A stretch of DNA of 64,000 nucleotides from Gammaproteobacteria bacterium (lineage in GTDB: Bacteria; Pseudomonadota; Gammaproteobacteria; Eutrophobiales; Eutrophobiaceae), in NCBI GenBank assembly GCA_965240365.1, contig OZ251218.1:258689-322688 (forward strand), in the 5' to 3' direction. Of the stretch, positions 6,560 through 58,496 are shown in pieces (within the stretch, counting starts at the first letter, position 1; each line of letters opens with the position of its first letter). The notes beneath the pieces were generated by a model. The model ran no database searches. It was given only the letters and a program-made list of their open reading frames with translations, and was not told the origin of the DNA. The position numbers and the translations under genes are program-made.

Positions 6560-6780
6560 TAATAACAAATTACAGCCTTGAATCTGGCGCTGTAAACAGA
6601 AACTACGGGTTATTCAACACCCCGGCATCCTTTCCCTGGATTCCTCGGCAGCTTGTTCCAGACCTGCCTGCAGCAGGCAGGCGCTGCTCTACCACCTGCG
6701 TCCATGCAGGCGGGCTTTCGCTGGAATGACGATGGAGTGATACGGACAAATCACGGCAATCCCGGTTTTCACTCCCGCTC
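6560..6780. repeat. composite small repeat (palindromic unit CCTGCCTGCAGCAGGCAGG plus a ggctttcgctggaatgac unit) in the GS-like/amidotransferase intergenic gap
   Basis: The sequence recurs near 41540-41660, 43920-43990 and 48780-48900 in this window. Confidence 0.6.
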
Positions 6781-9735: not shown

Positions 9736-9955
9736 GTGGCCCCCTCGTTCAAGATAAAAACATAACATTAAATGAACCGGGAATAACCGATTACAATCTC
9801 ATATTCGATTGTTGCAAGGCAGCGGTCAATTTATCTGTCGATATACCACTTCGGTGGTAAATGTTGGCGCCTTAAACTTTCCCGGCGACGGCAAACTTTA
9901 CGCGATTTTGTCCTTTATCCTTGCAAATCAGGCAGATTTTGCCTAATTTACAAGG

Positions 9956-10495
9956 ATGATCGCCCGATTTATTACTTCAAAGGTGCAACAAGCCCTGCGG
10001 CGCCAGGCCGCGGTTGCGCTCATTGGACCCAGACAGGCCGGCAAAACGACGCTTGCGCTTGAAATCGGCAAGGCAGCCGGCGGTCTGGATCTGGAAGATA
10101 GCAATGATCGCAATCGCCTGACCGAACCCATTCTGTTTTTTGAGAAATTTGAAGATCGGCTCATCATTCTGGACGAAATTCATCGCGCGCCGGATTTATT
10201 TGAGGCCTTGTGCGGCGTGGTAGATAAGGGCCGGCGTAGGAAGAAGGACAAAAACCGGTTTTTGATTTTGGGTTCTACCTCAATTGACCTGCTGAGACAA
10301 TCCAGAGAAACCCTGGCAGGCCGGATTGCCTATGTCGATATGGGCACATTGGCGACCATTACTCTTTCATCATTTCACCCTGACACCGTAAACAAAAACC
10401 GAGGGCTGTCCAGCATTCCGACAGCGCCTTCCTGGATTCCAGCTTTTGCCTGCCTGCTACAGGCAGGTCAAGCTAATCGGTCTGACGCAGTATAA
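9956..10495 (+). pseudogene. AAA ATPase (AAA_14/DUF4143-type) 5' fragment, truncated by insertion of the palindromic repeat unit
   Basis: Walker A motif GPRQAGKTT and Walker B ILDEIH. The reading frame ends inside the repeat (IPAFACLLQAGQ = cctgcctgctacaggcaggtc) at about 160 aa, where about 400 aa is usual. Confidence 0.55.
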
Positions 10496-10971: not shown

Positions 10972-11132
10972 TTTTAAGGAAACTCTGATTGAATCAGAGT
11001 TTCCTGCGGTACAGGGATGTACCGCCAAAATCAATGATGCAAGTCATTGATTTTGAAGCAAGGTGAAAATCGCATTTTCACCTTGCGTGCTCTGAGAAAT
11101 CCAGGATGGATTTATTCAGAGCTTCCTTAAAT
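10972..11132. mobile_element. MITE-like element 'E' copy 1 (about 155 bp, TTAA-flanked, imperfect 15-bp terminal inverted repeats, three internal hairpins)
   Basis: It starts TTAAGGAAACTCTGATTGAATCAGAGTTTCC and ends TCAGAGCTTCCTTAA. Near-identical copies lie at 39770-39950 and 57439-57592, and a fragment at 31020-31060. Confidence 0.7.
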
Positions 11133-23274: not shown

Positions 23275-23575
23275 TATCATCTCCCGAAAACGCTCGAAAA
23301 CAATAATACGAACTGCGGGAATGTATTACAAAAACCAATGGATTCCGGCTTTCGCCGGAATGACGGCGGGGGTGTAATCTGCGTAACCTGCCTATAGCAG
23401 GCAGGTCTGCAAATTCCCTGCCTGATTCGCCTCATAGGTATTGACCCCGGATACTGTCCTTGCCCTCTCGCCGCTGACCTGTCATCCTCGGCGGCTGATT
23501 TTAGGCCCGCCTGCCTGCTTCCTTGCGGGTGTGAAGATAAATGACGGCTTCGCAAATATTAGAGATCCCCTGAAT

Positions 23576-31012: not shown

Positions 31013-31288
31013 GCTGTAAATGACGCCAGTCATTGCTTTTGAAGCAGAGTAAAAATTGCATTAATTAGTATCACGTGTTCTGATCTGATTGGTCTCATAG
31101 GTATTGAACCCGGACAGTTCATTGACAGACCACCTGTAGCAATCTATGCTGACATTGTTCCCGCTCTGCCTTGCATCGGGCTTGGTAAGTCCACGAAAGT
31201 GGCCACCATACGGCGGAAATTGCAATCCGGCATGGTGTCTTGCAAGGCCTGGGATTCTCGCCGGGCCTTTTGCTTTTAGATTAAAATC

Positions 31289-32012
31289 AATGAGAATCTT
31301 TTTAATCATTTTTCTGTCTTATCCAATCAATGTTCTTGGTTGGCAGTATAGCGTAATAGATGGAAGATATAACTGTCCTGAAATAGATAACTCGTACGAG
31401 TGCGCCCTGTATATTGAGCGTCATGAACTTTCCGACCAGTCATTCTTTAGACGCACAGATGAAAAAACTATTGTTTTAAGCCTGAGGAACGGCGAGAAAA
31501 TTATCCTTGAAAATAACAATTCAGAAATTGATACGCGGGCCTCGTTTGCCGTTTTGGAATATATAGCAAAGATGGACTCTGTAGTTGTGCTGCGACAATA
31601 CTATGAAGGCGCTGCGTATTTATTGATTAACCTTTCTTCAGGTGTTCAGAAAAAGCTCAGAGGTTATCCGGCAGTTTCACCTGACGGTCGGTCAATTGTT
31701 GTTGCAGATCAAGATTTATTTGCGGGTTACAATGACAACATATTTCAGGTTTATCGTATTGAAGATGAATGGCGTCTGGAGTTCGAAGAAGAGCCAACTG
31801 ACTGGGGGCCGGATCAGGTAAAATGGATCGGAAACAATTGTCTGAGCTTTATCAAAGTCACGGTAAACTCGGAACACTTTGAAAAAAGATCTTTACCTTT
31901 ATATATAAATGAAACAATGATATTGCGGCGCGCCAGCGCCGGTTGGAAAATTGTGCCTGGCGAAGGCATGCAGTCCGACAACAATTCGGCCGCGCCGTTT
32001 CTTTGCCAATAA
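31289..32012 (+). CDS. hypothetical secreted protein (AT-rich cassette gene 1)
   Basis: Signal-peptide-like N-terminus MRIFLIIFLSYPINVLG. About 38% GC, in a roughly 60% GC background. Confidence 0.5.
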
Positions 32013-32041
32013 TACAGAACGTTAAGCGTATATAGAAATAT

Positions 32042-32518
32042 ATGAAGATTGCTCATTGGTTTAAACAATACTGGATTTTAATTTCCAGAATATTGGGGCT
32101 TTTAGCTTCCATCATCATAATAGTAACTTTTACGCTTGAACTCTTTAAGTCCGGCAGAGAGATTCCGGAATACACTGGCGCCCTGGACTCTGAGTTTTCC
32201 GAGTTTATATGGGCAAACACAGACAACATATTCAAGATGCAACTACAGTTCAATGGACAGCAAAGCAGAGAGATAGTGGATTGGCTTAATGAAAAGAATG
32301 CAGAAAAAATTATTTGGTTTTTCGTAGAACATGACGGCGCCGGCACAGAGTTTGGCTTTTTTCGCGATGACCCGGAAATTCATTTAAATACCAGATATGT
32401 GTCGGACATCCATACCAGCGGGTATTTTAAGGTGCATAGTATCCAGGGGCCATATCAGGGATGGATGTCGGTAACGCTTAAAGCCGTGGGGCGCGAGCAT
32501 ATCAAACCGCTGTGGTGA
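32042..32518 (+). CDS. hypothetical membrane-anchored protein (AT-rich cassette gene 2)
   Basis: An N-terminal TM helix (ILISRILGLLASIIIIVTF). AT-rich like its neighbour. No recognised motif. Confidence 0.5.
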   Translation: MKIAHWFKQYWILISRILGLLASIIIIVTFTLELFKSGREIPEYTGALDSEFSEFIWANTDNIFKMQLQFNGQQSREIVDWLNEKNAEKIIWFFVEHDGAGTEFGFFRDDPEIHLNTRYVSDIHTSGYFKVHSIQGPYQGWMSVTLKAVGREHIKPLW

Positions 32519-32777
32519 AACAATTTTAGGAAATGACTTAAATACTAAAGCCATCCTTGCGATAGATATAAGAATGTAAATTATAGGGTGGCGTTTGGAA
32601 CCGGCCGCCGCTCTGCCGCCTGCATTCTGTAGGCACATTTTCTCAATGAGGATTGCCCGGATGCGCCTGTCCGCCCCTCCGTCATTGCGGCAAAAAAAGG
32701 AATGGCATGACCTGTTGCTTGCCGCCGGGTTAAAATACCTGCCTACAGCAGGCCGGCAGCAAGCAGGATGAGCGGAA

Positions 32778-33800
32778 ATGCGTAAATTAACGGTGTTTAT
32801 ACCGGGACTATTGGGGCCTGATATTGCCTTTCATCCCGATGATCTGCCCGGTTTGCCTGCCTTAAACTGGTTACTCGGCCGGGGCCGGCGGCGATCAGCG
32901 GTTGCGACAGTTTCACCAGGCTACGGGCTGTGTGAATTGTGCGGCCTGGGCCGGGGGCATGAAGATGATTATCCGATTGCCGCGATAACCCGTTTGAGCG
33001 AGGGCGGCCCACGGCCGGAAGGGCTGTGGTTGCGCGCCGATCCGGCGCATGTTGCGGCCGACCGGGACGGCTTGATCCTGCTTGATGATCGGCGTTTTAG
33101 TCTGAGTCTGTCTGACGCGCATGAATTGGCCGCCGCCGTTGATCCCCTGTTAAAATCACACGGGCTGAAACTGGAAATCCCGGCGTCTTGTCGCTGGTAT
33201 ATCCGTCTCTCCGCCCGGCTGGCGTTAAAGACGACGCCCCTGGATGCGGTTGTCGGCCGGGATATTCTGCCGCGGATGCCGGGCGGGGATGACCGTATCA
33301 AACTCGCGCGGCTCTTGAATGAGATACAAATGACATTACATTCCGCGTTGATCAATGAACAGAGGCAAAGACAAAAATTACTACCGATCAACAGCCTCTG
33401 GTTCTGGGGTTACGGATCGCTGCCTGAGACCATTGAACGCCGCTGGTCGTTTATCGCGGGTGACGAAAGTCTGGCAAAGGGGCTCGCGCTGCTTGCCGAA
33501 ATCCCTTTTCAGCCCGTGCCGGGGCATTATGAGCAGCTTGAACATGCCCCGGAAGATGGCAGCGGTCTGGTGGTGATCAACGCCCTGCAAAGGTTCAGCG
33601 ACTATCAGGACCCGGAGGGCTGGCTGGCGGCCCTGCCGGAATATGAGAAAAACTGGTTTTTGCCGCTGCAACGGGCCTTTAAGTCAGGACGGATGGCCTG
33701 TCTTGAGATCAGAACGGAACGCGACAGCATTACTCTCGGCAAAAGCGCCCGTTTTAAATTCTGGAAAAATGATAAAACCCTGCAATCGTTCAGAAAATGA
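32778..33800 (+). CDS. conserved hypothetical protein (340 aa) upstream of and overlapping recJ
   Basis: Intact ORF with an ATGA overlap onto the recJ start. Family not identified. Confidence 0.5.
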   Translation: MRKLTVFIPGLLGPDIAFHPDDLPGLPALNWLLGRGRRRSAVATVSPGYGLCELCGLGRGHEDDYPIAAITRLSEGGPRPEGLWLRADPAHVAADRDGLILLDDRRFSLSLSDAHELAAAVDPLLKSHGLKLEIPASCRWYIRLSARLALKTTPLDAVVGRDILPRMPGGDDRIKLARLLNEIQMTLHSALINEQRQRQKLLPINSLWFWGYGSLPETIERRWSFIAGDESLAKGLALLAEIPFQPVPGHYEQLEHAPEDGSGLVVINALQRFSDYQDPEGWLAALPEYEKNWFLPLQRAFKSGRMACLEIRTERDSITLGKSARFKFWKNDKTLQSFRK

Positions 33801-35756: not shown

Positions 35757-35935
35757 TCCATCCCTATGTCGTCATTCCGGCGAAGGCCGGAATCCAGTGG
35801 TTTATGTCATACATTCCCGCTTTAGCGGGAATGACAATTAGACAGGACTGGCGCTCATTTCACATCCCGGCCCGCACTCCTGGATTCCGGCCTTCGCCTG
35901 CCTGCCGCAGGCAGGCGCGAAGCAGCCCTGATTTG
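35757..35935. mobile_element. MITE-like element of the 'gtcattccggcgaaggccggaatccagtgg' family (units A+B+C)
   Basis: Near-identical about 140-bp copy at 41437-41580. Related copies at 43590-43790, 48636-49030 and 55905-55990. Confidence 0.65.
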
Positions 35936-35982: not shown

Positions 35983-36684
35983 TCAAGCAGGATTGCGCCG
36001 CAACGGCCGGCCGTGAATCGTCAGATGCCGGTCGGAGACCACGCTGACGGTCAGTTCTTCCAGGCCGGCCGCAAGCAGTTGCGCCCTGACTTCGGCCGGC
36101 GTGAAGGCCGCCTTCAGGGAAGCCTTAAAATCACGTTGTAATATTTCCGCCTCGCTGCCGGCGTATTCCCGCACCAGCGCCGAAACCCGCGCGTCGTTAT
36201 CCGGCCGCATTAAATCCATGATAAAAACCGCGGGATCGCCCCTGGCATTCTTAATGCAGTCCCACAACAACATGGGATCATGCAGATGATGCAGCAGGCT
36301 GTTGCTGAATATCAAGTCATAAGCCTGTTGCGACAGGCAAGAGGCGTCAAGCCGGGCCTTGATCAGTGTAATACGATTTGACAGCCCAGCGCGCCTGCCT
36401 GCCGCAGGCAGGTCGGCCAGCGCCTTCTGCGCCTCGGCCAACATCGCGACCGCCCCGTCAATGGCGTCAATATGATAGCCGGGATAAGCCCTGGCAAAGC
36501 GAATACTGATATCCGCAGCGCCACAACCGAGATCAACGGCCCTGCCCGTGCCGGGTAAATGCCCGCCGACGGTTTCCTTCAAGAGTTGGATAAAGTGATT
36601 ATGCGGCGCTTCAAAGTCAGCCCCGGCATAGGCGGCCGCCTGCCCGGCTTCGTCCATCAATTCAGGTTCGGTAATACGCCGCAT
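35983..36684 (-). CDS. class I SAM-dependent methyltransferase
   Basis: Motif I VDLGCGAADIS. It carries an in-frame copy of the palindromic repeat unit inside the CDS at 36388-36412, encoding DLPAAGRRA. Confidence 0.7.
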   Translation of the reverse strand: MRRITEPELMDEAGQAAAYAGADFEAPHNHFIQLLKETVGGHLPGTGRAVDLGCGAADISIRFARAYPGYHIDAIDGAVAMLAEAQKALADLPAAGRRAGLSNRITLIKARLDASCLSQQAYDLIFSNSLLHHLHDPMLLWDCIKNARGDPAVFIMDLMRPDNDARVSALVREYAGSEAEILQRDFKASLKAAFTPAEVRAQLLAAGLEELTVSVVSDRHLTIHGRPLRRNPA

Positions 36685-39754: not shown

Positions 39755-39769
39755 CGATTACAAATAACG

Positions 39770-39950
39770 CCAGGAAACTCTGATTTAATCAGAGTTTCCT
39801 GCGGCACAGGGACCTGCCTGCTGCAGGCAGGTGTGCCGCCAAAATCAATGACGCCAGTCATTGATTTTGAAGCAAGGTGAAAATCGCATTTTCACCTTGC
39901 GTGCTCTGAGAAGTCCTGGATGGACTTATTCAGAGCTTCTACTATACACC
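39770..39950. mobile_element. MITE-like element 'E' copy 2, with the palindromic unit nested inside its second hairpin
   Basis: Same sequence as copy 1 apart from an inserted CCTGCCTGCTGCAGGCAGG within ggcacaggga...tgtgcc. Confidence 0.7.
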
Positions 39951-39966
39951 GCAGGAGAATATCGTA

Positions 39967-40443
39967 ATGGCGAGGGGCATCAACAAGGCCATCTTGATTG
40001 GCAATTTAGGCAACGATCCGGATATCCGCTACACCGCGTCAGGCACGGCGATTGCAAATATCAGTCTGGCCACGGCGGAATCCTGGCGCGACAAGGAGTC
40101 CGGCGAACAGCAGGAACGCACCGAATGGCACCGGGTCGTCTTCTTTGGCCGGCTGGCCGAAATCGTGGGTGAGTACTTACGCAAGGGTTCGCAGGTCTAT
40201 GTCGAAGGCCGGATCCAGACCCGCAAGTGGCAGGACAAGGAGGGCAACGACCGCTATACCACCGAGGTCGTCGCCAATGAAATGCAGATGCTAGGCAGCC
40301 GTGGCGGGGCCAGCGCAAATTATAACGCGCCCGCCAATGCCCCGACCAATCACCCGCAAAACAAGGCCGCGCCGGACAAACCGGCCGCCGCCAGTCCGAA
40401 TGCTGCGCCGGCGGACGATTTTGATGATGATATTCCGTTTTAG
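39967..40443 (+). CDS. ssb: single-stranded DNA-binding protein
   Basis: OB-fold N-terminus ([23 protein letters not shown]), a Gly/Pro/Ala-rich linker, and the acidic tail DDFDDDIPF. Confidence 0.95.
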
Positions 40444-40539
40444 AACGGGGGCTAAAATAATTGAAAATGGATAATGGATAGCGGGGGCGCGCATTCATTG
40501 ACCGAAACAGGCCGACCTGCCTGTTGCAGGCAAGTCGCC

Positions 40540-41352
40540 ATGAAGTCCTTTTTACTCCTATGTGCCTTGTTGCCGTTTGTCCTTTCGTCGGCAAACGCGG
40601 GCGAGGCGCGGTTGAAACTGGCCACCACCACCAGCACGGAAAATTCCGGCCTGCTGGCCGTGCTCAATCCTCCGTTTGAGGCAAAATATAATGTCAAGGT
40701 GGATGTGATCTCGGTCGGCACCGGCAAGGCCATGCGGCTTGGCCGCAACGGCGATGTGGATCTTATCCTGGCGCATGCCCCGGCCGCCGAGCAGAAATTT
40801 GTCAGCGAGGGTTATGGCATTGAACGCGAGCCGGTGATGCACAACGATTTTGTGCTTATCGGCCCGGCCTCCGACCCGGCCGGTCTGCGCCAGGCGGCCG
40901 ATATTGGCGATGCCATGACCAGGCTGCTGAATGCCAGACACCCCTTTGTCTCCAGGGGCGATGACTCCGGCACCCATAAAAAGGAAAAAAACCTGTGGCA
41001 GGCCACGGGCCGGACGCCGACCGGCGGCTGGTATCTTTCGGTCGGTCAGGGGATGGGGGTCGTGCTGCGCATCGCCAATGACAAACAGGCTTATACCTTA
41101 ACCGACCGCGGCACCTATCTGGCCTACCGCGATAAACTCTCGCTCGGCATCCTGTTTCAGGGCGCCGCGGCCCTGTTCAATCCCTATCATGTTATTTTGG
41201 TCAATCCGGCCCGACACCCTCATGCCAAGGTCGATCCGGCCCGGCAGTATTCCGCCTTTATCCGCGGCCGGCAGGGGCAGGCCATCATCGGCAATTTCAA
41301 GGTAAACGGCGAGATTCTGTTCCACCCGGATGTCATTAAAGCGCGGCCCTGA
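40540..41352 (+). CDS. tupA: tungstate/molybdate-type ABC transporter substrate-binding protein (TupA-like), with no transporter partners nearby
   Basis: Signal peptide plus the TupA signature LKLATTTSTENSGLL...DVISVGTGKAMRLGRNGDVD. Confidence 0.7.
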   Translation: MKSFLLLCALLPFVLSSANAGEARLKLATTTSTENSGLLAVLNPPFEAKYNVKVDVISVGTGKAMRLGRNGDVDLILAHAPAAEQKFVSEGYGIEREPVMHNDFVLIGPASDPAGLRQAADIGDAMTRLLNARHPFVSRGDDSGTHKKEKNLWQATGRTPTGGWYLSVGQGMGVVLRIANDKQAYTLTDRGTYLAYRDKLSLGILFQGAAALFNPYHVILVNPARHPHAKVDPARQYSAFIRGRQGQAIIGNFKVNGEILFHPDVIKARP

Positions 41353-41356
41353 GCCA

Positions 41357-41880
41357 GGGTCACCTCATCTAAAATAAGGTGTCAGTTATCCTGGCCACGG
41401 TATCGTTAGGATCACTCATAATGCGCCTATCGCCCCTGTCGTTATTCCAGCGAAAGCTGGAATCCAGTGGTTTATGCCATACATTCCCGCCCAGGCGGGA
41501 ATGACAATTAGACAGAACTGGCGCTCATTTCACATCCCGGCCGGCCCTCCTGGATTCCGGCCTTCGCCTGCCTGCAGCAGGCAGGCCGGGCGGCTACGGG
41601 CGTCCTCGGCAGCTTGTTCCAGACGCTGCTCTACCACCTACGTCCTGTAGGCGTGCCCTCACGCCGCATACAGGACATCCTGTCCATAAATGACGACGAG
41701 GTGTTGTTTTGGCTTTCCGTTATCCTGCCTGTCTGCAAGAGGCAGGGCTTTAGCGGGAACACAGGGTCACCTCATCTAAAATAACGCTCAGGTATTCTGG
41801 CCACGGTATCGTTGGTATCGCTCATATCGCCCGCTATGTTAGCAATTTAGATGAGGTGACTCTGGGCCCTAAGCCCACTC
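41357..41880. repeat. composite repeat block: about 80-bp direct repeats (gggtcacctcatctaaaata...) flanking a MITE copy, plus an inverted partial copy at the end
   Basis: Copies at 41357-41440 and 41763-41840. The inverted segment ttagatgaggtgactctggg is at 41846-41866. Confidence 0.6.
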
Positions 41881-43378: not shown

Positions 43379-43559
43379 GCGTGTTTTATCGGTTCATGCC
43401 TGGATTGCGAGTTTAGCATAACAAGATAGACCGGGGCCAAGGCGATTCGGTTTCATTGCGGCGGCGCTTTTAACAGGCTCTTTTGAGTTCCGAGTGGGTT
43501 AAGCCGCATGTGGATTGAGTGTGCAGAAAATGGCATGAGCCTGTCTGCGGCAGACAGGC

Positions 43560-44000
43560 CGGAATGATGTAAAGCCGGAACAACACCCCATCGTCATTCC
43601 AGCGAAAGCTGGAATCCAGTGGTTGATACAATACATTCCCGCATAAGCGGGAATGACCATCTGAATACCTCATTCCAACCGACCCCGCTGAGTTACCTGC
43701 CACCCCGCTACCTGCCTGCGGCAGGCGTGGATTCCAGCTTTCGCTGGAATGACGAAACTGTTGTCATTTTGGCCTACCTGCTGCCCGCAGGCCATCTCCG
43801 TTCTGTCCTGGTCATCAATTAAGCCAGAATTATTGCAATTACCCACTCGGATTTTAAAAGAGGCCTTTAACACTTCTGTAAGCTCATCTTCACTGCCATA
43901 TGGCCAAAGCCGGTAATTCGTCATTCCGGCGAAGCTCGCCTACAGGACGTAGGTGGTAGAGCGGCGCCTGCCTGCTGCAGGCAGATCTGGAACAGGCCAC
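43560..44000. repeat. MITE/repeat block (units A, B, C; about 25-bp TIRs gtcattccagcgaaagctggaat...attccagctttcgctggaatgac)
   Basis: Terminal inverted repeats can be read directly. The same units recur elsewhere in the window. Confidence 0.65.
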
Positions 44001-44049: not shown

Positions 44050-44322
44050 TTAAGCCTGACGGCTTTCCTGAACATCTCTGGCCAGCCACGCTTTAATAAG
44101 AGACTGGTAAGGCATATCTCTTTTGTTGGCTTCCACTTTGATGCTGTCCAGCAAACCTTGTGGCAATCTCAAGGATATTGTCTGTGTTGATGGCTTCAGG
44201 TTGGGCATGACAACGCTTTCCGCCTTACTCAAGTCAAAATATTTACTTGAATCATGCGTCTCCCAAAACTTACGTTCCTCCTGCTCAGTTTTAAAGGCCG
44301 GGACTTTCTTAAGTTCGCTCAT
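44050..44322 (-). CDS. brnA: BrnA-type (CopG-like) antitoxin
   Basis: A 90-aa protein ending ...YQSLIKAWLARDV, downstream of and overlapping brnT. Confidence 0.7.
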   Translation of the reverse strand: MSELKKVPAFKTEQEERKFWETHDSSKYFDLSKAESVVMPNLKPSTQTISLRLPQGLLDSIKVEANKRDMPYQSLIKAWLARDVQESRQA

Positions 44323-44608
44323 AACTCTTTCTCTCCTTTGGATGCATGTCTCTAGCTGAGATTATCCGAATCAACGTATCATCATTTCTCAGTGTCATTG
44401 TAATATGCAGTTTCCTTTCCGAGTCTGTTTTTCCGTAGGCATGGTACCTAAACTCTTTCTTGCTATGCTTGACATCTACAAGTAATAAAAGGGGTTCGTT
44501 GAAGAAAATCTGCTCCGCCTCAGCCTGAGTAACACTATGTTTATCCTGGCTTTTCCGAGCATTTCCTGCATCCCAGTCAAAACCCGTTATCTTGCTCAAA
44601 TCGACCAT
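44309..44608 (-). CDS. brnT: BrnT-type ribonuclease toxin (DUF497)
   Basis: FDWDAGNARK...KH motif and IRIISARDMHPKERKSY. Confidence 0.75.
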   Translation of the reverse strand: MVDLSKITGFDWDAGNARKSQDKHSVTQAEAEQIFFNEPLLLLVDVKHSKKEFRYHAYGKTDSERKLHITMTLRNDDTLIRIISARDMHPKERKSYERT

Positions 44609-48399: not shown

Positions 48400-49170
48400 G
48401 TCATTCCGGCCGGCTGGCCTGTTGCGGGCAGGCAAAAGCCGGGATCAATTTTACATCTTGACATTGCCTTCCTCGGCGACTGTTCCGACCTGCCCGCAGC
48501 AGGCAGGCGCCGCTCTATCACCTACCTCCTTTAGGCGAGCTTCCGCCGGAATGACGGCAGGAGTGGATGAAATACTGGTTATTATTCCGGCTTGCCTGCT
48601 GCAAGCAGGTCGAGTGACAGGAAATCAGAAAAACACTTCGTTGTCATTCCAGCGAAAGCTGGAATCCAGTGGTTTATATGACATTCCCGCCTGAGCCTGC
48701 CCAGCGGGAATAACAACAAATACTTCATTCTGACCGGCTTGGTACGGCCAGACAGCATCGCAATCCGTTTTACATCCCGGCGCCGCCCTCCTGGATTCCT
48801 CGGCGGCCTGTTCCTGACGCCGCTCTACCACCTGCATCCATGCAGGCGAGCCTTCACCTGCCTGCAGCAGACAGGCTGGAATGACGATGGGGCGTTGTTC
48901 TGGCTTTACGTCATTCCCGCCTATCTGCAACAGGTCGACCGAAATAACTTAGTTAGTTGTCATTCCCGCAGGCGGGAATGTATGACATAAACCACTGGAT
49001 TCCGGCCTTCGCTGGAATGACGACGGGGGAATAGACAAATTCCGGCAACCTTGAATGTCATTCTCAACCCCTGCATCATTCTGATCTGCTAACTGCTGCA
49101 GGCAGGTCTGCGAAATCTGCAGATGACATGCCTACCTGATTTGTCTCATAGGTATTGAACCCGCGCATAA
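48400..49170. repeat. dense block of MITE/palindromic repeat units (A, B, C, D) between lysA and vapC
   Basis: Several copies of the gtcattccagcgaaagctggaatccagtgg, acattcccgc...gcgggaat and cctgcctgcagcaggc units. The 33-bp unit D lies at 49137-49170 with a hairpin. Confidence 0.65.
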
Positions 49171-49402: not shown

Positions 49403-49864
49403 TCAAGAACTAAAAAAGATGAGCCATTTCGCGCCGCCATCAGCATGTCTATTCCCAGGGATCAACAGCGCCACCCCCGTGGACGCGAAATCTTGAATAT
49501 TACGGGTGACCACCGGCAGGCCATGCACCAGGGCTGTCGCCGCGATCAGGGCATCCCGGTCTGATTTGGCGTCAGGCACATGTAATTTGGCGCACTGTCT
49601 GGCCACGGCCATATCGACGGGCAATATGCGGCCGGCGAAGGCGGGCAACACCTGGGTTTCGAGCCAGGCGCGAAGCACGCTGCCTTGTGCAGGGTCGCGG
49701 CGCTCGGCCAGGAGCACGCCGGTTTCAAGTTCGAGCAGGGTAATCACCGACAGGTAAAGACTGGCGGCGGGAACGCTCTCCGCCCACGCCAGAACCCTCT
49801 GCCCGGCTTTACCTGACTTGGCCTTCCTCAGTTCAGAAATCACGTTGGTGTCGAGCAGATACAT
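49403..49864 (-). CDS. vapC: PIN-domain toxin VapC
   Basis: N-terminal MYLLDTNVISELRK with PIN acidic residues, coupled to the upstream antitoxin gene. Confidence 0.8.
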   Translation of the reverse strand: MYLLDTNVISELRKAKSGKAGQRVLAWAESVPAASLYLSVITLLELETGVLLAERRDPAQGSVLRAWLETQVLPAFAGRILPVDMAVARQCAKLHVPDAKSDRDALIAATALVHGLPVVTRNIQDFASTGVALLIPGNRHADGGAKWLIFFSS

Positions 49865-50450: not shown

Positions 50451-51697
50451 TTATGTTTGTTCAATTTGCCGTGTCCGGTCCGTGGGCGGGATTCTCAAAG
50501 GATCGGACGGCGTGAGCTCTACTTCATAGCGCGGAGTAAACGTTACGTTGCTAACCCGAGCCCCCTGAACACGATCGACACGGTAACTGCGGTGTTCGTC
50601 TTTGTTGGTATTCCATGCATGCAGAATGAGATGGTCTTCCTGTGTCCGCCGCAGCGAATAAGGTTCTATGCGTCTGGTCGAACCCTGGTAGTCCAGATCG
50701 ACACAGAGTCTGTTTGATGCGGCAAAACGGATGATTTCCAGGTAGTTTTGCTCTGTTTTGCTAACAGGAAGACGCAGTGAGCGTTCGCGAATAACGCTCT
50801 CGCCCGGCACCATTGTAAAGGCCGCGGGTATCTGCGCGACTTCGCCACCAGGCAGCCAGGTGAAAAACTCATCCAGAGCCTCCCAAAAGATTTTGATGGA
50901 TGGCAACGCGGGTAGCTGGTGGGCGAGCATAGTGGACCAGCCGCCAGCAAGGTTGTCGTAGTGGCCGTCAAGATCCTCGCGTTTCGGGACATCAATATCC
51001 TTGAATTCGCACTTTTGCCGAAGCACGTCGAGTAAAACGGATGCTGACGGACGGGTTTCGGTATTCCGGTAAAGGTTGATGACATCATAGAGGTCGCGCG
51101 GCCTCGCCCGTTCGGCGAGCGCGCGCACCTTTTCGCCAAACGCTTCTTCGTAGGCATAAGCGAGCACGGTGATACCATCTTCCGGGCAATCGCTGTAGGG
51201 GTGAAAGATGGGGACTTGCGCGGGCGATAGCACAAGAACCTCGTCCGCGGTGAGGTCCAGTTTAATCCGTGGCAGGGCCGATTTTGGAGAGACCGGTCCG
51301 CAATAGCTAAGCCTGCCCTGACAGCTTTTGTTGCCACGGGGATTTTCATAGGCCTCAAAATCCTGCTTATCGGCAACAAGTTCGAGACCGGCGCGTTCGT
51401 AGACCCACTCGGATATTTCGCCGAACACCCACTTCAGAAACGCCTCGTCAAGGTGAGCGGGTTCGGTCAGGGTGAAGTCGAGGTCTTCGGAAAAGCGGTA
51501 GGTTTCGAAGAAGTATTTTTTGAGACAGGTGCCACCCTTGAATACCCAGTGCTCGCGCAGTTCGTTATGCGCATAGATGCCGGCAAGCACCCACCGAGCG
51601 CATAGTCCTTCTCGACCACTTGAGGATTGAGGCCCAATATGCGGGCGATGTCGAGTAGTTCGCGCTTGCCGATCACGCCCGGCGCTCCCGCACCCAA
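50451..51697 (-). pseudogene. AbiEii/DUF1814 nucleotidyltransferase toxin with a C-terminal WYL-like domain; frameshifted by a 1-nt deletion near codon 30
   Basis: NTase motif FKGGTCLKKYF...RFSEDLDF. The C-terminal tail carries WYL-like RRIEPYSL...LILHAW...RSYRVDRV. Two overlapping minus-strand frames join at ggtgggtg; ggttgggtg is expected for ALGWVLAG. Confidence 0.65.
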
Positions 51698-52515
51698 CGG
51701 GCCGGAACGCGGAGTCTCCAGCGCGTGACGAGGCGCTTGTTGTCGAGCGCAGGGTCAAGCTGTGCGTGGCCCCTGGTCAGTCTCTGCCGGCAGCCTTCAA
51801 CCAGTTCGCTGGCCGTGACTTCGGTCTCAGCGAGAAAACCAAGACGCTTGAATACCGCGCCGTTGCCGAGCTTTTCCGCGTATGCAAGGAGCAACTCATC
51901 GTTGCGATCCTGGCGTTTGAAGTAAGCGGCGAGACAGTCGGCTACATGCTGAATGCCACCGCCTATCGGCGGTTCGTCGAGCATATCGATGATGGTGCGA
52001 TGGACATCCGACACCGCAATTCTTGTCCGGCCGCGCCAGACGGCCCTGGTTCCGAAGAAGAATTTTTTATCCCTGTGACGAAGAGTGAAAACCGTGCCCT
52101 GCCGTTCCAGCGCAGCCCGCCTGACGGCCCTTGCGGTAAAGACAAGAATGTCGCGAAATATCTGCTCGGTCAGATCCCAATGCTCGGCGGCGGTCCTGCC
52201 GCCGATGTAGGCGGGCTCAAAGAGCGCCGGGACCAATATCCAGGGGTCTTGTATCACCTGCCCGGCATCAAGCATTTCGATCGGCACAGGCACATAAACT
52301 CCCGGCCCGATGCGGCGAAGCCAGCCTTGAGAGACCCACCTGGAAAGCATCTTGGCCGCTTGTGTTCGGGTAAGGCGCAGGGTCTCGGCAGCGTCTTCAA
52401 TATGCACGAGATCGCTTGCCGCACCGACAACGGCAGCGAGGGCGGCCCTTCCGGCGGGCAATGTCTCAGGCGCATTCTTCATAATATAGTATAATATTAC
52501 TTCAAAAATTCGCAA
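51673..52515 (-). CDS. AbiEi-family antitoxin/transcriptional regulator (type IV toxin-antitoxin)
   Basis: An N-terminal winged HTH plus a C-terminal AbiEi-type domain, directly upstream of and overlapping the AbiEii gene. A 14-bp palindrome, AAATTCGCGAATTT, lies in its promoter at 52579-52592. Confidence 0.65.
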   Translation of the reverse strand: MRIFEVILYYIMKNAPETLPAGRAALAAVVGAASDLVHIEDAAETLRLTRTQAAKMLSRWVSQGWLRRIGPGVYVPVPIEMLDAGQVIQDPWILVPALFEPAYIGGRTAAEHWDLTEQIFRDILVFTARAVRRAALERQGTVFTLRHRDKKFFFGTRAVWRGRTRIAVSDVHRTIIDMLDEPPIGGGIQHVADCLAAYFKRQDRNDELLLAYAEKLGNGAVFKRLGFLAETEVTASELVEGCRQRLTRGHAQLDPALDNKRLVTRWRLRVPARWVRERRA

Positions 52516-55904: not shown

Positions 55905-55990
55905 TTTAGTTGTCATTCCCGCCTGCTTACAGCAGGCGGGAATGTATATTAAAAACCACTGGATTCCAGCTTTCGCTGGAATGACAGCGG
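55905..55990. repeat. partial MITE copy (units B+A) after rho
   Basis: gtcattcccgcctgcttacagcaggcgggaatg...ggattccagctttcgctggaatgac. Confidence 0.6.
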
Positions 55991-57339: not shown

Positions 57340-57438
57340 AAGTAATGCATTTGTTGTGATTCCCGCATAAGCGGGAATGACCATAATGACGGCAGGGGTG
57401 TCCGGGCTCATACTTATGAGACAAATCAGGCAGGCTGG

Positions 57439-57592
57439 TTAAGGAAACTCTGATTGAATCAGGGTTTCCTGCGGTAGAGGGACGTACCGCCCCAGAATCA
57501 ATAACTTGGCAATGATGCAAGTCATTGATTTTGAAGCCCTGCCTGCTGCAGGCAGGGAAATCCAGGATGGATTTATTCAGAGCTTCCTTAAG
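57439..57592. mobile_element. MITE-like element 'E' copy 3 (TTAA-flanked), with its third hairpin replaced by the palindromic unit
   Basis: ggTTAAggaaactctgattgaatcagggtttcc...ccctgcctgctgcaggcaggg...tcagagcttccTTAAgc. Confidence 0.7.
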
Positions 57593-57645
57593 CAGATTTA
57601 TGGGTGGTTCTGATTGACCCGTTGCTGACAGGCAGGGATGAGGCT

Positions 57646-58362
57646 TCAGTGCAGGTTTCCCCGGCCCCGAAGCTCGGTAAATTTCATTTTGACGCCAACC
57701 AGTTCGATCAGATCATCATGCCTGAGTCGGCGGGCTTCGCGCCCGACCGCTTCCCCGTTGACCACCGGGCGCTGCTTGCCGTCGCCATCGGCGGCGACAT
57801 GAATCAAAAAATAACCCTGGGCGCGGCGTGATATCAAGGCCACCTGAATACCGGGTTTGCCAAGCATGATCAGGGCCTTGCCGAGGTCCAGTATCTGCCC
57901 CGCGAAAGGGCCGCCCACGGCCGTCAGGCGGCCGAGAGGCGTCGCCCCGGCGGTGGTTGGATTGTTAACCGGGGCGATCGCCCGCTCCGCCTTCCGGGCG
58001 GCGGCCACGGCCGCGCTGGCCGAACCCGGCTTGATGACGAGACTTCTGGCAAACGTATTATCGGCCACGCTTTCGAGTTCTTCCACATACTTTAATGTAT
58101 GCTTGCCGATCTTGATAACATCGCCGTCCTTGAGCACATGCTTTTTCACCAGCTTGCCGTTGACATAGGTGCCGTTGGTGGTGCCCAGGTCTTCCAGAAA
58201 GGAGTCATTCATTATCGTGATCGCCAGCGCATGCTTGCGGCTGACCGCCAGATTGTCAATTTGAATGTCATTGCCGGGTTTGCGCCCAATCGTCACCCGC
58301 TCCTTGTTGAGCTGGTATTCGCCCTGCGCCAGCCCGTTAATACTCAGAACCAACTTTGCCAT
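57646..58362 (-). CDS. tandem FHA-domain protein
   Basis: N-terminal FHA (VTIGRKPGNDIQIDNLAVSRKHALAI...GTTNGTYVNG) and a second FHA-like C-terminal module (VVNGEAVGR...HDDLIEL). Confidence 0.75.
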   Translation of the reverse strand: MAKLVLSINGLAQGEYQLNKERVTIGRKPGNDIQIDNLAVSRKHALAITIMNDSFLEDLGTTNGTYVNGKLVKKHVLKDGDVIKIGKHTLKYVEELESVADNTFARSLVIKPGSASAAVAAARKAERAIAPVNNPTTAGATPLGRLTAVGGPFAGQILDLGKALIMLGKPGIQVALISRRAQGYFLIHVAADGDGKQRPVVNGEAVGREARRLRHDDLIELVGVKMKFTELRGRGNLH

Positions 58363-58496
58363 TACTCATTCCCGCCCCTTGTTTCATCAGGTAATCCGGC
58401 GCCTGCCCGCGGCAGGTCGGCCTGTTTAATTATCATGTTAATACAATCCGCGAATTGTTACGGATTCAGGCCAGAAGTGCAACTTCAGGGCGTCTT

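What the first reader, a model, noticed from the sequence alone, without database searches (positions are those of the whole stretch)
39788..39832. 21-bp mobile palindrome CCTGCCTGCWGCAGGCAGG inserts into other repeats, gene ends and an intact CDS
The same palindromic unit appears at twelve or more sites: 6664, 10447, 23385, 32745, 35700, 35905, 36388, 39802, 40515, 41563, 43706, 43965, 48868, 57545 and 58395. It is nested inside hairpin 2 of MITE-E copy 2 and replaces hairpin 3 in copy 3. It truncates the AAA-ATPase gene at 10447. It abuts the tupA start codon. It also sits in frame inside the SAM-methyltransferase CDS at 36388-36412, where it encodes DLPAAGRRA. This is behaviour like that of repetitive extragenic palindromic (REP) elements, with apparent hairpin-targeted insertion and rare in-frame insertion into a coding sequence.
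Basis: seen in the sequence. Interest (0 to 1): 0.55.

Follow-up and report, generated by a model that had tools for sequence, protein, structure and literature searches.

The report
Tiny 19-bp mobile hairpin palindrome
A 19-base perfect palindrome (CCTGCCTGC-N-GCAGGCAGG) has been copied as an exact unit, with no target duplication, into hairpin loops of other repeats, gene ends and one intact gene of an uncultured gammaproteobacterium. The same 19-mer also recurs in many unrelated bacterial phyla and phages, so it looks like one of the smallest mobile DNA units known.

Summary
The window holds 22 copies at 3 mismatches or fewer, against 0.06 expected; 14 of them have 2 or fewer.

Four empty-versus-filled site pairs show clean insertions of exactly 19 bp with no target-site duplication. 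These lie at the 3' edge of a hairpin loop or at a stem junction.

The methyltransferase carries a 21-bp (7-residue, DLPAAGR) in-frame insertion. All 21 orthologues (58-84% identity) lack it.

Three secondary processes act on inserted copies:
- Recombination between two copies deletes the DNA between them. This explains the "replaced hairpin".
- Quasi-palindrome correction lengthens the stems.
- The loop cytosine is a C>T hotspot.

One claim needs correcting. The AAA-ATPase gene breaks about 70-90 nt upstream of the palindrome, not at it.

The element behaves like REP elements or cyanobacterial small dispersed repeats, but it fails the defining REP tests. It has no GTAG-like guide, no doublets, and no RAYT was found; the only relative seen is an unrelated IS200.

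Unexpectedly, the exact 19-mer occurs in more than 113 genome stretches from many phyla and in 13 viral contigs. Five control palindromes gave 0, 0, 0, 1 and 0 viral hits.

The mobilising enzyme is unknown. A single-strand HUH-type transposase is the leading guess. I class this as a new variant of a known kind, of moderately high interest.

The parts
6663..6681 (.). PAL copy (0 mismatches) inside an RS-type repeat, in the filled state
   Evidence: conserved in six strains
10449..10467 (.). PAL copy (CTAC centre variant) at the right end of the 113-bp filler that replaces the 3' part of the AAA_14 gene
23387..23405 (.). PAL copy (2 mismatches), intergenic, next to a dRS3-like repeat
32738..32756 (.). 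PAL copy (2 mismatches), 22 nt upstream of the ORF at 32778-33800
   Evidence: present in L133 and L134
35696..35714 (.). PAL copy (2 mismatches with N centre), recJ-methyltransferase spacer
35897..35915 (.). PAL copy following a half dRS3-like arm; L002 and L003 carry a degenerate version 3 bp shorter
36394..36412 (.). PAL copy inside the SAM-methyltransferase CDS; together with 2 flanking nt it forms the 21-bp in-frame insertion encoding DLPAAGR
39813..39831 (.). PAL copy in the loop of hairpin 2 of MITE-E copy 2 (the flagged site); empty in L003, +23 bp in L002 and L134
40516..40534 (.). PAL copy (2 mismatches) ending 5 nt before the ATG (40540) of the TupA-like gene
   Evidence: absent in sister species L117
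41567..41585 (.). PAL copy following a half dRS3-like arm (paralogue of 35897)
41728..41746 (.). degenerate PAL (3 mismatches)
43540..43558 (.). PAL variant CCTGTCTGC-G-GCAGACAGG with a compensatory pair change
43711..43729 (.). degenerate PAL; L002, L003 and L134 have an additional perfect PAL in tandem 5' of it (+19 bp)
43773..43791 (.). degenerate PAL (3 mismatches)
43967..43985 (.). PAL copy inside an RS-type repeat (reverse orientation, filled)
   Evidence: the same RS+PAL occurs in sister species L117 at 18743
48489..48507 (.). PAL copy inside an RS-type repeat (filled)
48591..48609 (.). PAL variant CTTGCCTGC-T-GCAAGCAGG (compensatory pair change)
48857..48875 (.). PAL copy abutting a dRS3-like right arm (ctggaatgac)
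49088..49106 (.). degenerate PAL (3 mismatches)
55922..55940 (.). PAL-like core forming the centre of a dRS3-like hairpin ATTCCCGCCTGCT-TAC-AGCAGGCGGGAAT
57538..57556 (.). PAL copy in MITE-E copy 3, replacing 36 nt (hairpin 4 plus the left arm of hairpin 5); the product of fusing PALs at sites B and C
58402..58420 (.). degenerate PAL (3 mismatches) in the FHA-proS spacer
10974..11127 (+). MITE-E copy 1: five-hairpin MITE with TTAA target duplication and no PAL. It serves as the empty reference for sites A, B and C. The orthologous copy carries PALs in L138 and L140.
39769..39950 (+). MITE-E copy 2 upstream of ssb; absent in strain L133
57439..57600 (+). MITE-E copy 3, flanked by TTAA; absent in strains L135 and L136
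41594..41650 (+). RS-type repeat in the empty state (GTTCCAGA|CGCTGCTC)
48788..48845 (+). RS-type repeat in the empty state (GTTCCTGA|CGCCGCTC)
35983..36684 (-). class I SAM-dependent methyltransferase CDS carrying the in-frame PAL insertion (residues 91-97)
40540..41352 (+). TupA-like substrate-binding protein gene whose ribosome-binding region is occupied by a PAL
9956..10495 (+). truncated AAA_14 ATPase ORF; the last ~38 codons are read from repeat filler that includes a PAL

Best explanation
PAL (CCTGCCTGC-N-GCAGGCAGG) is a discrete, non-coding, ultra-small mobile element. It is a single hairpin that gets copied or moved as an exact 19-nt unit without duplicating its target.

**Shown**
- The unit is inserted precisely, +19 bp, at four independent kinds of site.
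- The preferred positions are single-strand/double-strand junctions of pre-existing hairpins. These are the 3' edge of a loop, a bulge, or the centre of another PAL.
- In this lineage the insertion point usually lies just 3' of GA.
- Insertions in a CDS survive only when the net length is a multiple of three and the site is a surface loop.
- After insertion, three secondary processes act:
  - recombination between two PALs deletes the DNA between them;
  - quasi-palindrome template switching copies flanking bases to the other side and lengthens the stem;
  - the cytosine in the 3-nt loop mutates C>T at about 2-4 times the rate seen at any other position.

**Inferred**
- Insertion happens on single-stranded DNA, into extruded hairpins or the lagging-strand template.
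- It is catalysed in trans by an enzyme not encoded next to the copies.
- The best candidate class is an HUH/Y1 (IS200/IS605- or RAYT-like) single-strand transposase. The reasons are precise ends, no target duplication, a short sequence-specific target and a hairpin substrate.
- Many copies then multiply passively inside larger repeats (the MITE, RS elements and IS copies).
For: **Excess over chance**
- 22 copies against 0.06 expected.

**Clean 19-bp empty/filled pairs with no target duplication**
- MITE site A, CAGGGA|TGT.
- MITE sites B and C.
- RS repeat, TTCCAGA|CGCTGC.
- A tandem extra copy at 43711.

**Coding-sequence insertion**
- 21-bp in-frame insert in the methyltransferase, absent from all 21 orthologues and from sister-species DNA.
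- It lies in a helix-to-strand connector of the AF2 model.
- PALs also lie inside IS630, ISL3 and IS5 transposase ORFs in other strains, reading DLPAAGR or TCLQQAG.

**Insertion geometry**
- Taken from ssDNA folds of the empty sites.
- Self-nested PAL-in-PAL occurs in L066 and L110.
- Flanking stems of 7 bp or more: 8 observed against 0.7 expected across phyla.

**Target preference**
- GA flank in 26 of 59 own-lineage contexts against 11% expected.

**Secondary processes**
- Deletion products: window copy 3 equals the B-C fusion of an L141-type copy. L138 and L140 carry the A-B fusion.
- Stem extension GGGA...TCCC in L002 and L134 gives a perfect 20-bp stem. This matches the known quasi-palindrome template-switch mutation class (PMC7202029).
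- Loop C>T hotspot: 26 changes at arm position 9, all C>T, against 7-13 changes at each other position.

**Lineage expansion**
- About 7-11 copies in the syntenic 22 kb, against 1 in the sister species.

**Sequence specificity beyond this genome**
- 13 viral contigs against 0/0/0 for composition-matched palindromes and 1/0 for compensatory variants.
- More than 113 genome stretches against about 9 expected in the whole collection.

**Y1 transposases in the species**
- An IS200 is present in strain L143.
Against: - No enzyme has been linked to PAL. No RAYT or Y1 gene was seen among the 20 window ORFs scanned or in most strain loci.
- The one IS200 found has terminal hairpins unrelated to PAL, and it scores below the cut-off on the RAYT model.
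- No gene family recurs next to PAL in 113 unrelated loci.
- Several presence/absence differences lie inside multi-copy repeats. Conversion between repeat copies, rather than fresh PAL insertion, could produce them. The orthologous MITE at 10974 carries three different PAL configurations in three strains.
- Site B lacks a GA flank. Across phyla the GA flank is at background level, 19 of 132.
- Only about 6% of cross-phylum copies sit in clear longer hairpins.
- Known HUH elements and REPs use imperfect hairpins plus a guide tetranucleotide. PAL has neither (PMC3479197).
- No insertion event has been observed directly.
Confidence: 0.6

Rival explanations
1. PAL is a passenger only. It entered a few larger repeats once (MITE-E, RS elements, dRS3-like units, IS copies). 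It is now spread and reshuffled solely by transposition of those carriers and by homologous recombination or gene conversion between their copies. There is no PAL-specific mobility today.
For: - Many copies lie in multi-copy carriers.
- The orthologous MITE at 10974 has three different PAL configurations in three strains, and these match configurations seen at other loci.
- RS+PAL already exists in the sister species.
- The 35897 site differs between strains by a clustered block of changes that looks like conversion.
Against: - Unique-context copies have no carrier repeat: inside the methyltransferase CDS, 5 nt upstream of the TupA-like gene, and inside IS630, ISL3 and IS5 ORFs.
- At least seven unrelated insertion contexts each show an exact 19-bp boundary.
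- The same unit occurs in unrelated flanks in more than 100 genomes of other phyla.
Confidence: 0.2
2. There is no dedicated enzyme. PAL copies arise by replication template switching or repair synthesis. A nascent strand stalled at a hairpin copies a PAL from another locus through microhomology such as GA, then returns. Alternatively, PAL oligonucleotides are captured at hairpin-induced breaks.
For: - Template switching clearly operates here, as shown by the GGGA to TCCC stem extension (PMC7202029).
- PAL is associated with deletions and replacements: MITE copy 3 and the AAA_14 filler.
- GA microhomology is seen at 44% of contexts.
- This would explain occurrence in many phyla without a shared gene.
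Against: - The return jump has no microhomology, because the 3' flanks are unrelated. Yet the boundaries are exact to the base in four independent pairs.
- It does not explain why this 19-mer is enriched everywhere while compensatory or composition-matched palindromes are not.
Confidence: 0.1
3. PAL is a functional motif kept by selection. It could be a protein operator, an RNA stabiliser or terminator hairpin, or a methylation or uptake signal. Its recurrence would then reflect convergence rather than mobility.
For: - It is mostly extragenic: 36% lie in long ORFs against 82% of random positions.
- It forms a stable hairpin.
- The copy upstream of the TupA-like gene is conserved in six strains.
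- The centre GCNGC resembles known methylase sites, and the C>T hotspot could be 5mC deamination.
Against: - Copies are polymorphic between near-identical strains.
- Copies sit inside CDSs, IS genes and other repeats, self-nest, and lack a T-tract.
- Single (half-site) occurrences are rare, unlike uptake sequences.
- No Rfam family matches.
- Copy number jumped about 10-fold since the split from the sister species.
Confidence: 0.07

Closest known systems
REP / REPIN elements mobilised by RAYT (TnpA_REP) transposases (PMC3116915, PMC3479197)
   Same: - Short, G+C-rich, hairpin-forming, mostly extragenic and high in copy number.
- Variable between strains and non-coding, with no enzyme encoded in cis.
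- Presumed to move on single-stranded DNA without target duplication.
   Different: - PAL is a perfect 19-bp palindrome with a 1-nt centre.
- It has no conserved GTAG-like tetranucleotide at the foot.
- It occurs singly rather than as fixed-spacing inverted doublets.
- No RAYT was found.
- The identical sequence occurs across phyla, whereas REP families are species- or genus-specific.
Small dispersed repeats (SDR) of cyanobacteria (Elhai et al. 2008, Genome Res 18:1484; cited in PMC3116915 and PMC2884548; details recalled from my own knowledge because the paper is not held)
   Same: - Units of about 20-25 nt that appear mobile.
- They are found nested within each other and within other repeats, and occasionally in genes.
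- The enzyme is unknown.
   Different: - The sequence families and the host phylum differ.
- SDRs are described as lineage-restricted.
- Here the insertion boundaries, the absence of target duplication and the hairpin-junction geometry are defined by empty/filled pairs.
Neisserial intergenic mosaic elements (dRS3 + RS; PMC1797815)
   Same: - The window's spacers are arrays of 20-bp inverted repeats, ATTCC-N10-GGAAT (12 copies against 0.12 expected), separating RS-like units.
- Array length is strain-variable.
- PAL lives inside these arrays and inside dRS3-like loops.
   Different: - PAL itself does not fit ATTCCC-N8-GGGAAT.
- The host is a gammaproteobacterium, not Neisseria.
- dRS3 is thought to be a recombinase or phage-integration site, not an inserted unit.
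Rickettsia palindromic elements (reviewed in PMC10969869)
   Same: A palindromic repeat that inserts in frame into protein-coding genes and is tolerated as an extra surface peptide.
   Different: - RPEs are about 100-150 bp and confined to Rickettsia.
- PAL adds only 7 residues, and it is mainly extragenic.
IS200/IS605-family single-strand 'peel and paste' transposition (PMC3479197)
   Same: - Precise ends and no target duplication.
- Insertion 3' of a short specific sequence.
- Hairpin recognition and ssDNA substrates.
- An IS200 is active in this species (L143).
   Different: - Those elements have two different imperfect subterminal hairpins plus guide sequences, and they carry genes or are several hundred bp long.
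- PAL is one symmetric hairpin.
- The local IS200's end hairpins are unrelated to PAL.

Membership tests
REP / REPIN-RAYT system | Short, extragenic, hairpin-forming repeat at high copy number | tested here: met
   - 22 copies in 64 kb against 0.06 expected.
- Hairpin free energy -8 to -10.7 kcal/mol.
- Mostly extragenic.
REP / REPIN-RAYT system | Imperfect palindrome with a conserved guide tetranucleotide (GTAG-like) 5' of the hairpin foot | tested here: not met
   - PAL is a perfect palindrome.
- Flank profiles show only a non-T base at position -1, and GA in 44% of own-lineage contexts. Nothing is conserved at -3 or -4.
- Feature definition taken from PMC3479197.
REP / REPIN-RAYT system | Cognate RAYT gene in the genome, typically flanked by its REPs | tested here: inconclusive
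   - None among the 20 window ORFs scanned, nor among the precomputed Pfam labels of genes in about 190 kb of strain loci.
- The exception is one IS200 in L143: NF033573 at 110.7 bits, RAYT model at 25.4 bits against a cut-off of 80.
- The rest of the 3.66-Mb genome could not be searched.
REP / REPIN-RAYT system | Organisation as inverted doublets (REPIN/BIME) at characteristic spacing | tested here: not met
   - Copies occur singly.
- The only recurrent pair is the 55-bp-spaced pair inside MITE-E (sites B and C).
- Positions show no common spacing.
Neisserial dRS3 / NIME | 20-bp inverted repeat ATTCCC-N8-GGGAAT flanking RS units; Neisseria host | tested here: not met
   - PAL does not match the pattern.
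- The neighbouring repeats do match: 12 ATTCC-N10-GGAAT.
- The host's ProRS is closest to uncultured Gammaproteobacteria and Thiotrichaceae at 71-75% identity.
- Definition taken from PMC1797815.
MITE (non-autonomous DDE transposon derivative) | Terminal inverted repeats of a parent IS plus target-site duplication | tested here: not met
   - Four empty/filled pairs show +19 bp exactly with no duplicated target bases.
- By contrast, MITE-E in the same window has a TTAA duplication.
IS200/IS605-type non-autonomous element | No target duplication; insertion 3' of a fixed tetra- or pentanucleotide; two distinct imperfect subterminal hairpins with guide sequences | tested here: inconclusive
   - No target duplication: met.
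- Target reduced to GA, and only in 44% of contexts.
- A single symmetric hairpin, so the two-hairpin end architecture is not met.
DNA uptake sequence (DUS/USS) | Lineage-specific non-palindromic 9-12-mer at about 1 per kb, including in coding DNA, often but not only as inverted pairs | tested here: not met
   - The 9-mer arm occurs 22 times, almost entirely accounted for by the two arms of the palindromes.
- The same sequence occurs in many phyla.
Cyanobacterial small dispersed repeats (SDR) | Membership of the published SDR sequence families | not testable with these tools
   - The defining paper is not in the held library.
- The resemblance is in behaviour only: very small size, nesting, unknown enzyme.
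Known RNA families (Rfam 15) | Match to a curated covariance model | tested here: not met
   No match at gathering threshold anywhere in the window.

The most novel reading that the evidence does not exclude
PAL is a pan-bacterial, self-nesting 19-nt mobile hairpin, and the smallest transposable unit described. Its exact sequence is maintained across more than ten phyla and their phages. One possible reason is that it is the substrate of a single, horizontally spreading (perhaps phage-borne) ssDNA transposase or nuclease family. Another is that a universal replication/repair activity acts on hairpin junctions. It occasionally blooms to hundreds of copies per genome, as it has here.
Probability: 0.25. 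Interest if true: 0.85.

Novelty: new variant of a known kind. Interest (0 to 1): 0.62.

Why it matters
**Size limit of mobile DNA.** If PAL moves as a unit, it pushes the lower size limit of mobile DNA to a single 19-nt hairpin. It also gives an unusually clean system, because empty and filled alleles, nested copies and deletion products can all be read at base resolution.

**Questions it opens.** The system can be used to ask how REP-like elements actually propagate, a question still open after 40 years.

**Routes of small-scale genome change.** The data show three concrete routes:
- peptide insertions in enzymes;
- occupation of ribosome-binding regions;
- deletions mediated by recombination between PALs.

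**In vivo hairpin signature.** The C>T hotspot at the loop cytosine is a built-in sign that the hairpins form in living cells.

**Cross-phylum recurrence.** Recurrence of one exact 19-mer across phyla is not expected for REP-type repeats. It points to a shared, unidentified enzyme or process.

Tried and rejected
- **DNA uptake sequence dialect.** Prompted by the Neisseria-like dRS3 repeats. Rejected because the host is a gammaproteobacterium. The arm 9-mer hardly occurs outside the palindromes, and the motif is cross-phylum.
- **Chance or base composition.** Rejected by the window shuffles and by five control palindromes in viral contigs.
- **Associated gene in cis.** All-against-all BLASTP of 2414 ORFs from 113 unrelated PAL loci gave no recurrent family. 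The best was 9 loci of generic families.
- **ORFs between PAL pairs.** No transposase was found. ssb is flanked by PAL in L017 and L107 as well as here, probably by coincidence.
- **RAYT search.** Only an IS200 with unrelated ends was found.
- **Literature search for the sequence.** Nothing relevant. The Elhai 2008 paper could not be read.
- **Plasmid database.** No exact PAL in 7.3 Gb, so the unit is not universal among cultured taxa.
- **Rfam.** No family match.
- **Exact look-ups of the window's own proteins.** Some were not on record, so strain comparisons used 90%-cluster members instead.
- **Generality of the GA target.** It does not hold outside this lineage.
Full report

The sequence at 39799-39839 is TGCGGCACAGGGA-CCTGCCTGCTGCAGGCAGG-TGTGCCGC. 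I call the 19-bp palindrome CCTGCCTGC-N-GCAGGCAGG 'PAL'.
- At 2 mismatches or fewer there are 14 hits, against 0.00 in 100 dinucleotide-preserving shuffles.
- With a free centre base and 3 mismatches or fewer there are 22 hits, against 0.06.
- The arm CCTGCCTGC/GCAGGCAGG is the most frequent 9-mer in the window. It occurs 22 times, almost all inside palindromes.
Several further copies were missed.
- The invariant unit is 19 bp. The neighbouring pair is usually R...Y, which is where '21 bp' comes from.

**2. Host and setting**

- The window encodes ordinary housekeeping genes: ProRS, Rho, RecJ, SSB, a TupA-like binding protein and glutamine-synthetase-like enzymes.
- ProRS is 99% identical to proteins on 3.27-Mb and 1.5-Mb contigs. 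Its closest named relatives, at 71-75% identity, are uncultured Gammaproteobacteria and Thiotrichaceae.
- The spacers are packed with repeats:
  - 12 dRS3-like inverted repeats, ATTCC-N10-GGAAT, against 0.12 expected. They separate RS-like units, an architecture described for Neisseria NIMEs (PMC1797815).
  - A five-hairpin MITE of about 150 bp ('MITE-E'), with ssDNA fold -56 kcal/mol and z -14.8. It is flanked by a TTAA duplication.
- No tRNA or Rfam family lies in the window.

**3. Evidence that PAL is an inserted unit**

I fetched the same chromosomal regions from at least six strains of the species (L001-L003, L133-L136, L138-L143). I also fetched them from a sister species about 82% identical in protein (L117-L119).

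(a) Upstream of ssb there are four allelic states:
- no MITE (L133);
- MITE without PAL, where hairpin 2 is an 8-bp stem with a GGGA loop (L003);
- MITE +19 bp (window, L001);
- MITE +23 bp, where PAL is followed by TCCC, the inverted copy of GGGA (L002, L134).

(b) An RS-type repeat exists in two states:
- empty, as GTTCCAGA|CGCTGCTC (41594-41650 and 48788-48845);
- filled with exactly 19 bp (6663, 48489, and 43967 in reverse).

(c) MITE-E copies in different loci and strains carry PAL at three positions. Each adds 19 bp:
- A: CAGGGA|TGT
- B: GAAGC|AAGGTG
- C: GCTCTGA|GAAATCC

(d) At 43711, three strains have an additional perfect PAL in tandem with a degenerate one.

None of these pairs shows duplicated target bases.

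(e) The methyltransferase (35983-36684, minus strand) has seven extra residues, DLPAAGR, relative to all 21 orthologues aligned at 58-84% identity.
- At the DNA level this is a 21-bp insert containing PAL, absent from the sister species.
- In an AlphaFold model (mean pLDDT 77.6) it lies between helix 79-90 and strand 105-108, that is, in a connector.
- All eight cluster members at 97% identity or more keep it.

(f) In other strains PAL also lies inside IS630, ISL3 and IS5-type transposase ORFs. There it is read as TCLQQAG or DLPAAGR.

(g) The syntenic 22 kb has about 7-11 PALs here, against one in the sister species. That one copy lies in the same RS repeat, so the RS+PAL combination predates the split.

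**4. Where it inserts**

Folding the empty sites as ssDNA gives the geometry:
- Site A is the junction between the last loop base and the descending stem of hairpin 2.
- The RS site lies one base before the 3' stem, in an 11-nt loop.
- Site C is a stem/bulge junction, and site B is two base pairs into the foot of hairpin 4.

Other observations point the same way:
- In other strains PAL sits in loops of dRS3-like hairpins.
- In other phyla PAL sits in the centre of another PAL (L066, L110).
- Across 131 cross-phylum copies, flanks forming 7 or more further base pairs occur 8 times, against 0.7 in permutations. Most copies, however, are not in obvious longer hairpins.
- In this lineage, 26 of 59 distinct contexts have GA immediately 5' (or TC 3'), against 11% expected. 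In the empty sites the GA belongs to the target.
- Outside the lineage the GA signal vanishes.

**5. What happens afterwards**

(i) Deletion between PALs.
- An L141 copy has PALs at B and C.
- The window's copy 3 and L138_6190 have a single PAL joining GAAGC to GAAATCC, with the 36 intervening bases gone.
- L138_16255 and L140_7120 show the analogous A-B fusion.

(ii) Stem extension.
- The TCCC addition turns a bulged structure (-18.1 kcal/mol) into a perfect 20-bp hairpin (-28.4 kcal/mol).
- This is the signature of quasi-palindrome template switching (PMC7202029).

(iii) Loop hotspot.
- Among 82 distinct PAL sequences, arm position 9 carries 26 changes, all C>T. This is the cytosine in the predicted 3-nt loop.
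- Every other position carries 7-13 changes.
- This fits deamination in an extruded hairpin, or 5mC at GCNGC.
- The counts are not phylogenetically independent.

(iv) Conversion.
- The orthologous MITE at 10974 has no PAL in the window, a B-C fusion in L138, and A-B plus C in L140.
- So exchange between repeat copies also moves PALs.

**6. Correction on the AAA-ATPase**

- The 179-residue ORF (9956-10495) matches full-length AAA_14+DUF4143 proteins only up to residue ~133-141.
- Strain L138 keeps an intact 392-residue gene.
- In the window about 1 kb is replaced by a 113-bp repeat-derived filler (10361-10473). PAL sits at its right end.
- PAL is therefore at a rearrangement junction, but it is not the break point in the gene.

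**7. Beyond this genome**

My arithmetic gives about 9 expected for the whole 596 Gb.
- The hits come from Acidobacteriota, Bacteroidota, Ignavibacteriota, Desulfobacterota, Planctomycetota, Nitrospirota, Omnitrophota, CPR lineages, Gammaproteobacteria and others.
- Locus G+C ranges from 0.30 to 0.75. The flanks are unrelated, and conservation ends at the unit's edges.
- Viral contigs gave 13 stretches. The controls gave:
  - 0 for the same arms in reverse order;
  - 0 and 0 for two composition-matched palindromes;
  - 1 and 0 for two compensatory variants.
- 7.3 Gb of plasmids from cultured bacteria held no exact copy.
- Cross-phylum copies are mostly extragenic: 36% lie inside long stop-free ORFs, against 82% of random positions.
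- No gene family recurs beside them.
- Many copies sit in the same kind of GTCATTCC...GGAATGAC hairpins as in the window.

**8. Mechanism**

Shown:
- precise 19-nt unit;
- no target duplication;
- preference for hairpin junctions;
- the secondary processes above.

Inferred:
- insertion into ssDNA by a trans-acting enzyme.

The properties best match HUH/Y1 single-strand transposition and the proposed RAYT-REP reaction (PMC3479197). However:
- PAL lacks the imperfect stem and the guide tetranucleotide of those systems.
- No RAYT was found.
- The only Y1 gene seen is an IS200 that interrupts the DAO gene in strain L143. Its end hairpins are unrelated to PAL.

Rival accounts are passive carriage plus conversion, enzyme-free template switching, and a selected functional motif. 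They are weighed in the rival-explanations section. None of them explains both the unique-context exact insertions and the sequence specificity across phyla.

**9. Comparison and verdict**

- PAL works like REP elements and, even more closely, like the very small nested 'small dispersed repeats' of cyanobacteria. The latter comparison rests on my own knowledge, since the paper is cited in PMC3116915 and PMC2884548 but not held.
- Its in-frame gene insertion parallels Rickettsia palindromic elements.
- It is not a demonstrable member of the REP/RAYT, dRS3, MITE or DUS families.
- I class it as a new variant of a known kind.
- The cross-phylum recurrence of one exact 19-mer is the unexpected part. 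The mobilising activity remains the open question.

Noticed in passing
window 23342-23361, 35774-35832, 41444-41502, 43596-43750, 48646-49018, 55963-55982, 57359-57378: There are twelve dRS3-like inverted repeats, ATTCC-N10-GGAAT, against 0.12 expected. They are arranged with RS-like units in strain-variable arrays. This is NIME-like architecture in a gammaproteobacterium, although NIMEs were described as Neisseria-specific (PMC1797815). Similar GTCATTCC...GGAATGAC hairpins flank PAL in Acidobacteriota, Ignavibacteriota and others (L017, L039, L049, L058, L083, L113).
   Followed up: partly
window 10974-11127, 39769-39950, 57439-57600 (partial at 31019-31062): MITE-E is a MITE of about 150 bp made of five consecutive hairpins (ssDNA fold -56 kcal/mol, z -14.8). 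It has TIR GGAAACTCTGA.../...TCAGAGCTTCC and a TTAA target duplication. Copies are present or absent between strains: the ssb copy is absent in L133, and copy 3 is absent in L135 and L136. The parent transposon was not identified.
   Followed up: partly
PAL copies in window and strain loci (82 distinct sequences): The cytosine next to the palindrome centre is a mutational hotspot. This is the loop C of the predicted 8-bp-stem, 3-nt-loop hairpin. It shows 26 changes, all C>T, against 7-13 changes at each other arm position. Two separate loci in L134 (the methyltransferase and the ssb MITE) both carry the same CTAC centre.
   Followed up: partly
L143 4797-5337 (strain variant of window gene 8392-9768): An IS200 of about 540 bp (NF033573, 110.7 bits) interrupts the DAO-family oxidoreductase gene in one strain only. 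Its end hairpins are CCCTCGCC-TTTA-GGCGAAGGG and CCCTCAGC-TTAT-AGCTGAGGG. So Y1 single-strand transposition is active in this population.
   Followed up: yes
L017 1800-2585; L107 361-2682; window 39813-40534: The ssb gene is closely flanked by PAL copies in an Acidobacteriota MAG and in another unrelated MAG, as well as in the window. That is 2 of about 126 foreign loci, where about 0.1 would be expected. It may be coincidence, or it may relate to hairpins or ssDNA around ssb.
   Followed up: no
L011, L029, L062, L071, L074, L106 (Desulfobacteraceae / Deltaproteobacteria MAGs): PAL sits at the exact centre of long palindromes of about 80 bp, built from two alternative 30-nt arms. The arms occur in A-PAL-A' and A-PAL-B' combinations, as if PAL were a joint between exchangeable arms.
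   Followed up: no
L025, L055, L070 (Gammaproteobacteria MC-11) and L079 (Thiotrichaceae): A conserved repeat of about 60 nt has PAL in the middle (tccatcctttggttcg-PAL-taaacgccacatccatgtgccactac). It is shared between different gammaproteobacterial MAGs.
   Followed up: partly
window 31146-32518; L134 4576-6311; L117 13465-14367; L133 6959-9570: The slot between the PALP-domain gene (PF00291) and the gene at 32778 is a strain-variable island:
- two low-GC3 ORFs without Pfam hits in the window;
- an EcoRV-like endonuclease plus a D12 methylase in L134;
- a D12 methylase alone in the sister species;
- a Methyltransf_21 gene plus an IS256-type transposase in L133.
   Followed up: no
window 13195-14856: A 553-residue N6 DNA methyltransferase has Eco57I and TaqI_C specificity domains and an N-terminal HTH. 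It is conserved in L138 and is shorter (495 residues) in L140. No partner endonuclease was checked.
   Followed up: no
window 44050-44608, 49403-49864, 50451-51758: Toxin-antitoxin and abortive-infection genes (BrnT/CopG-type antitoxin, a PIN-domain protein, AbiEii-WYL) are embedded among the repeat arrays. In L136 the AbiEii gene is split by an IS630 copy that itself contains two PALs.
   Followed up: no
L136 11744-11882 (between the FHA-domain gene and proS; absent from window 58362-58497): A strain-specific 139-bp insertion is made of several hairpins with a PAL in the middle. It is a second, different multi-hairpin element that carries PAL.
   Followed up: no
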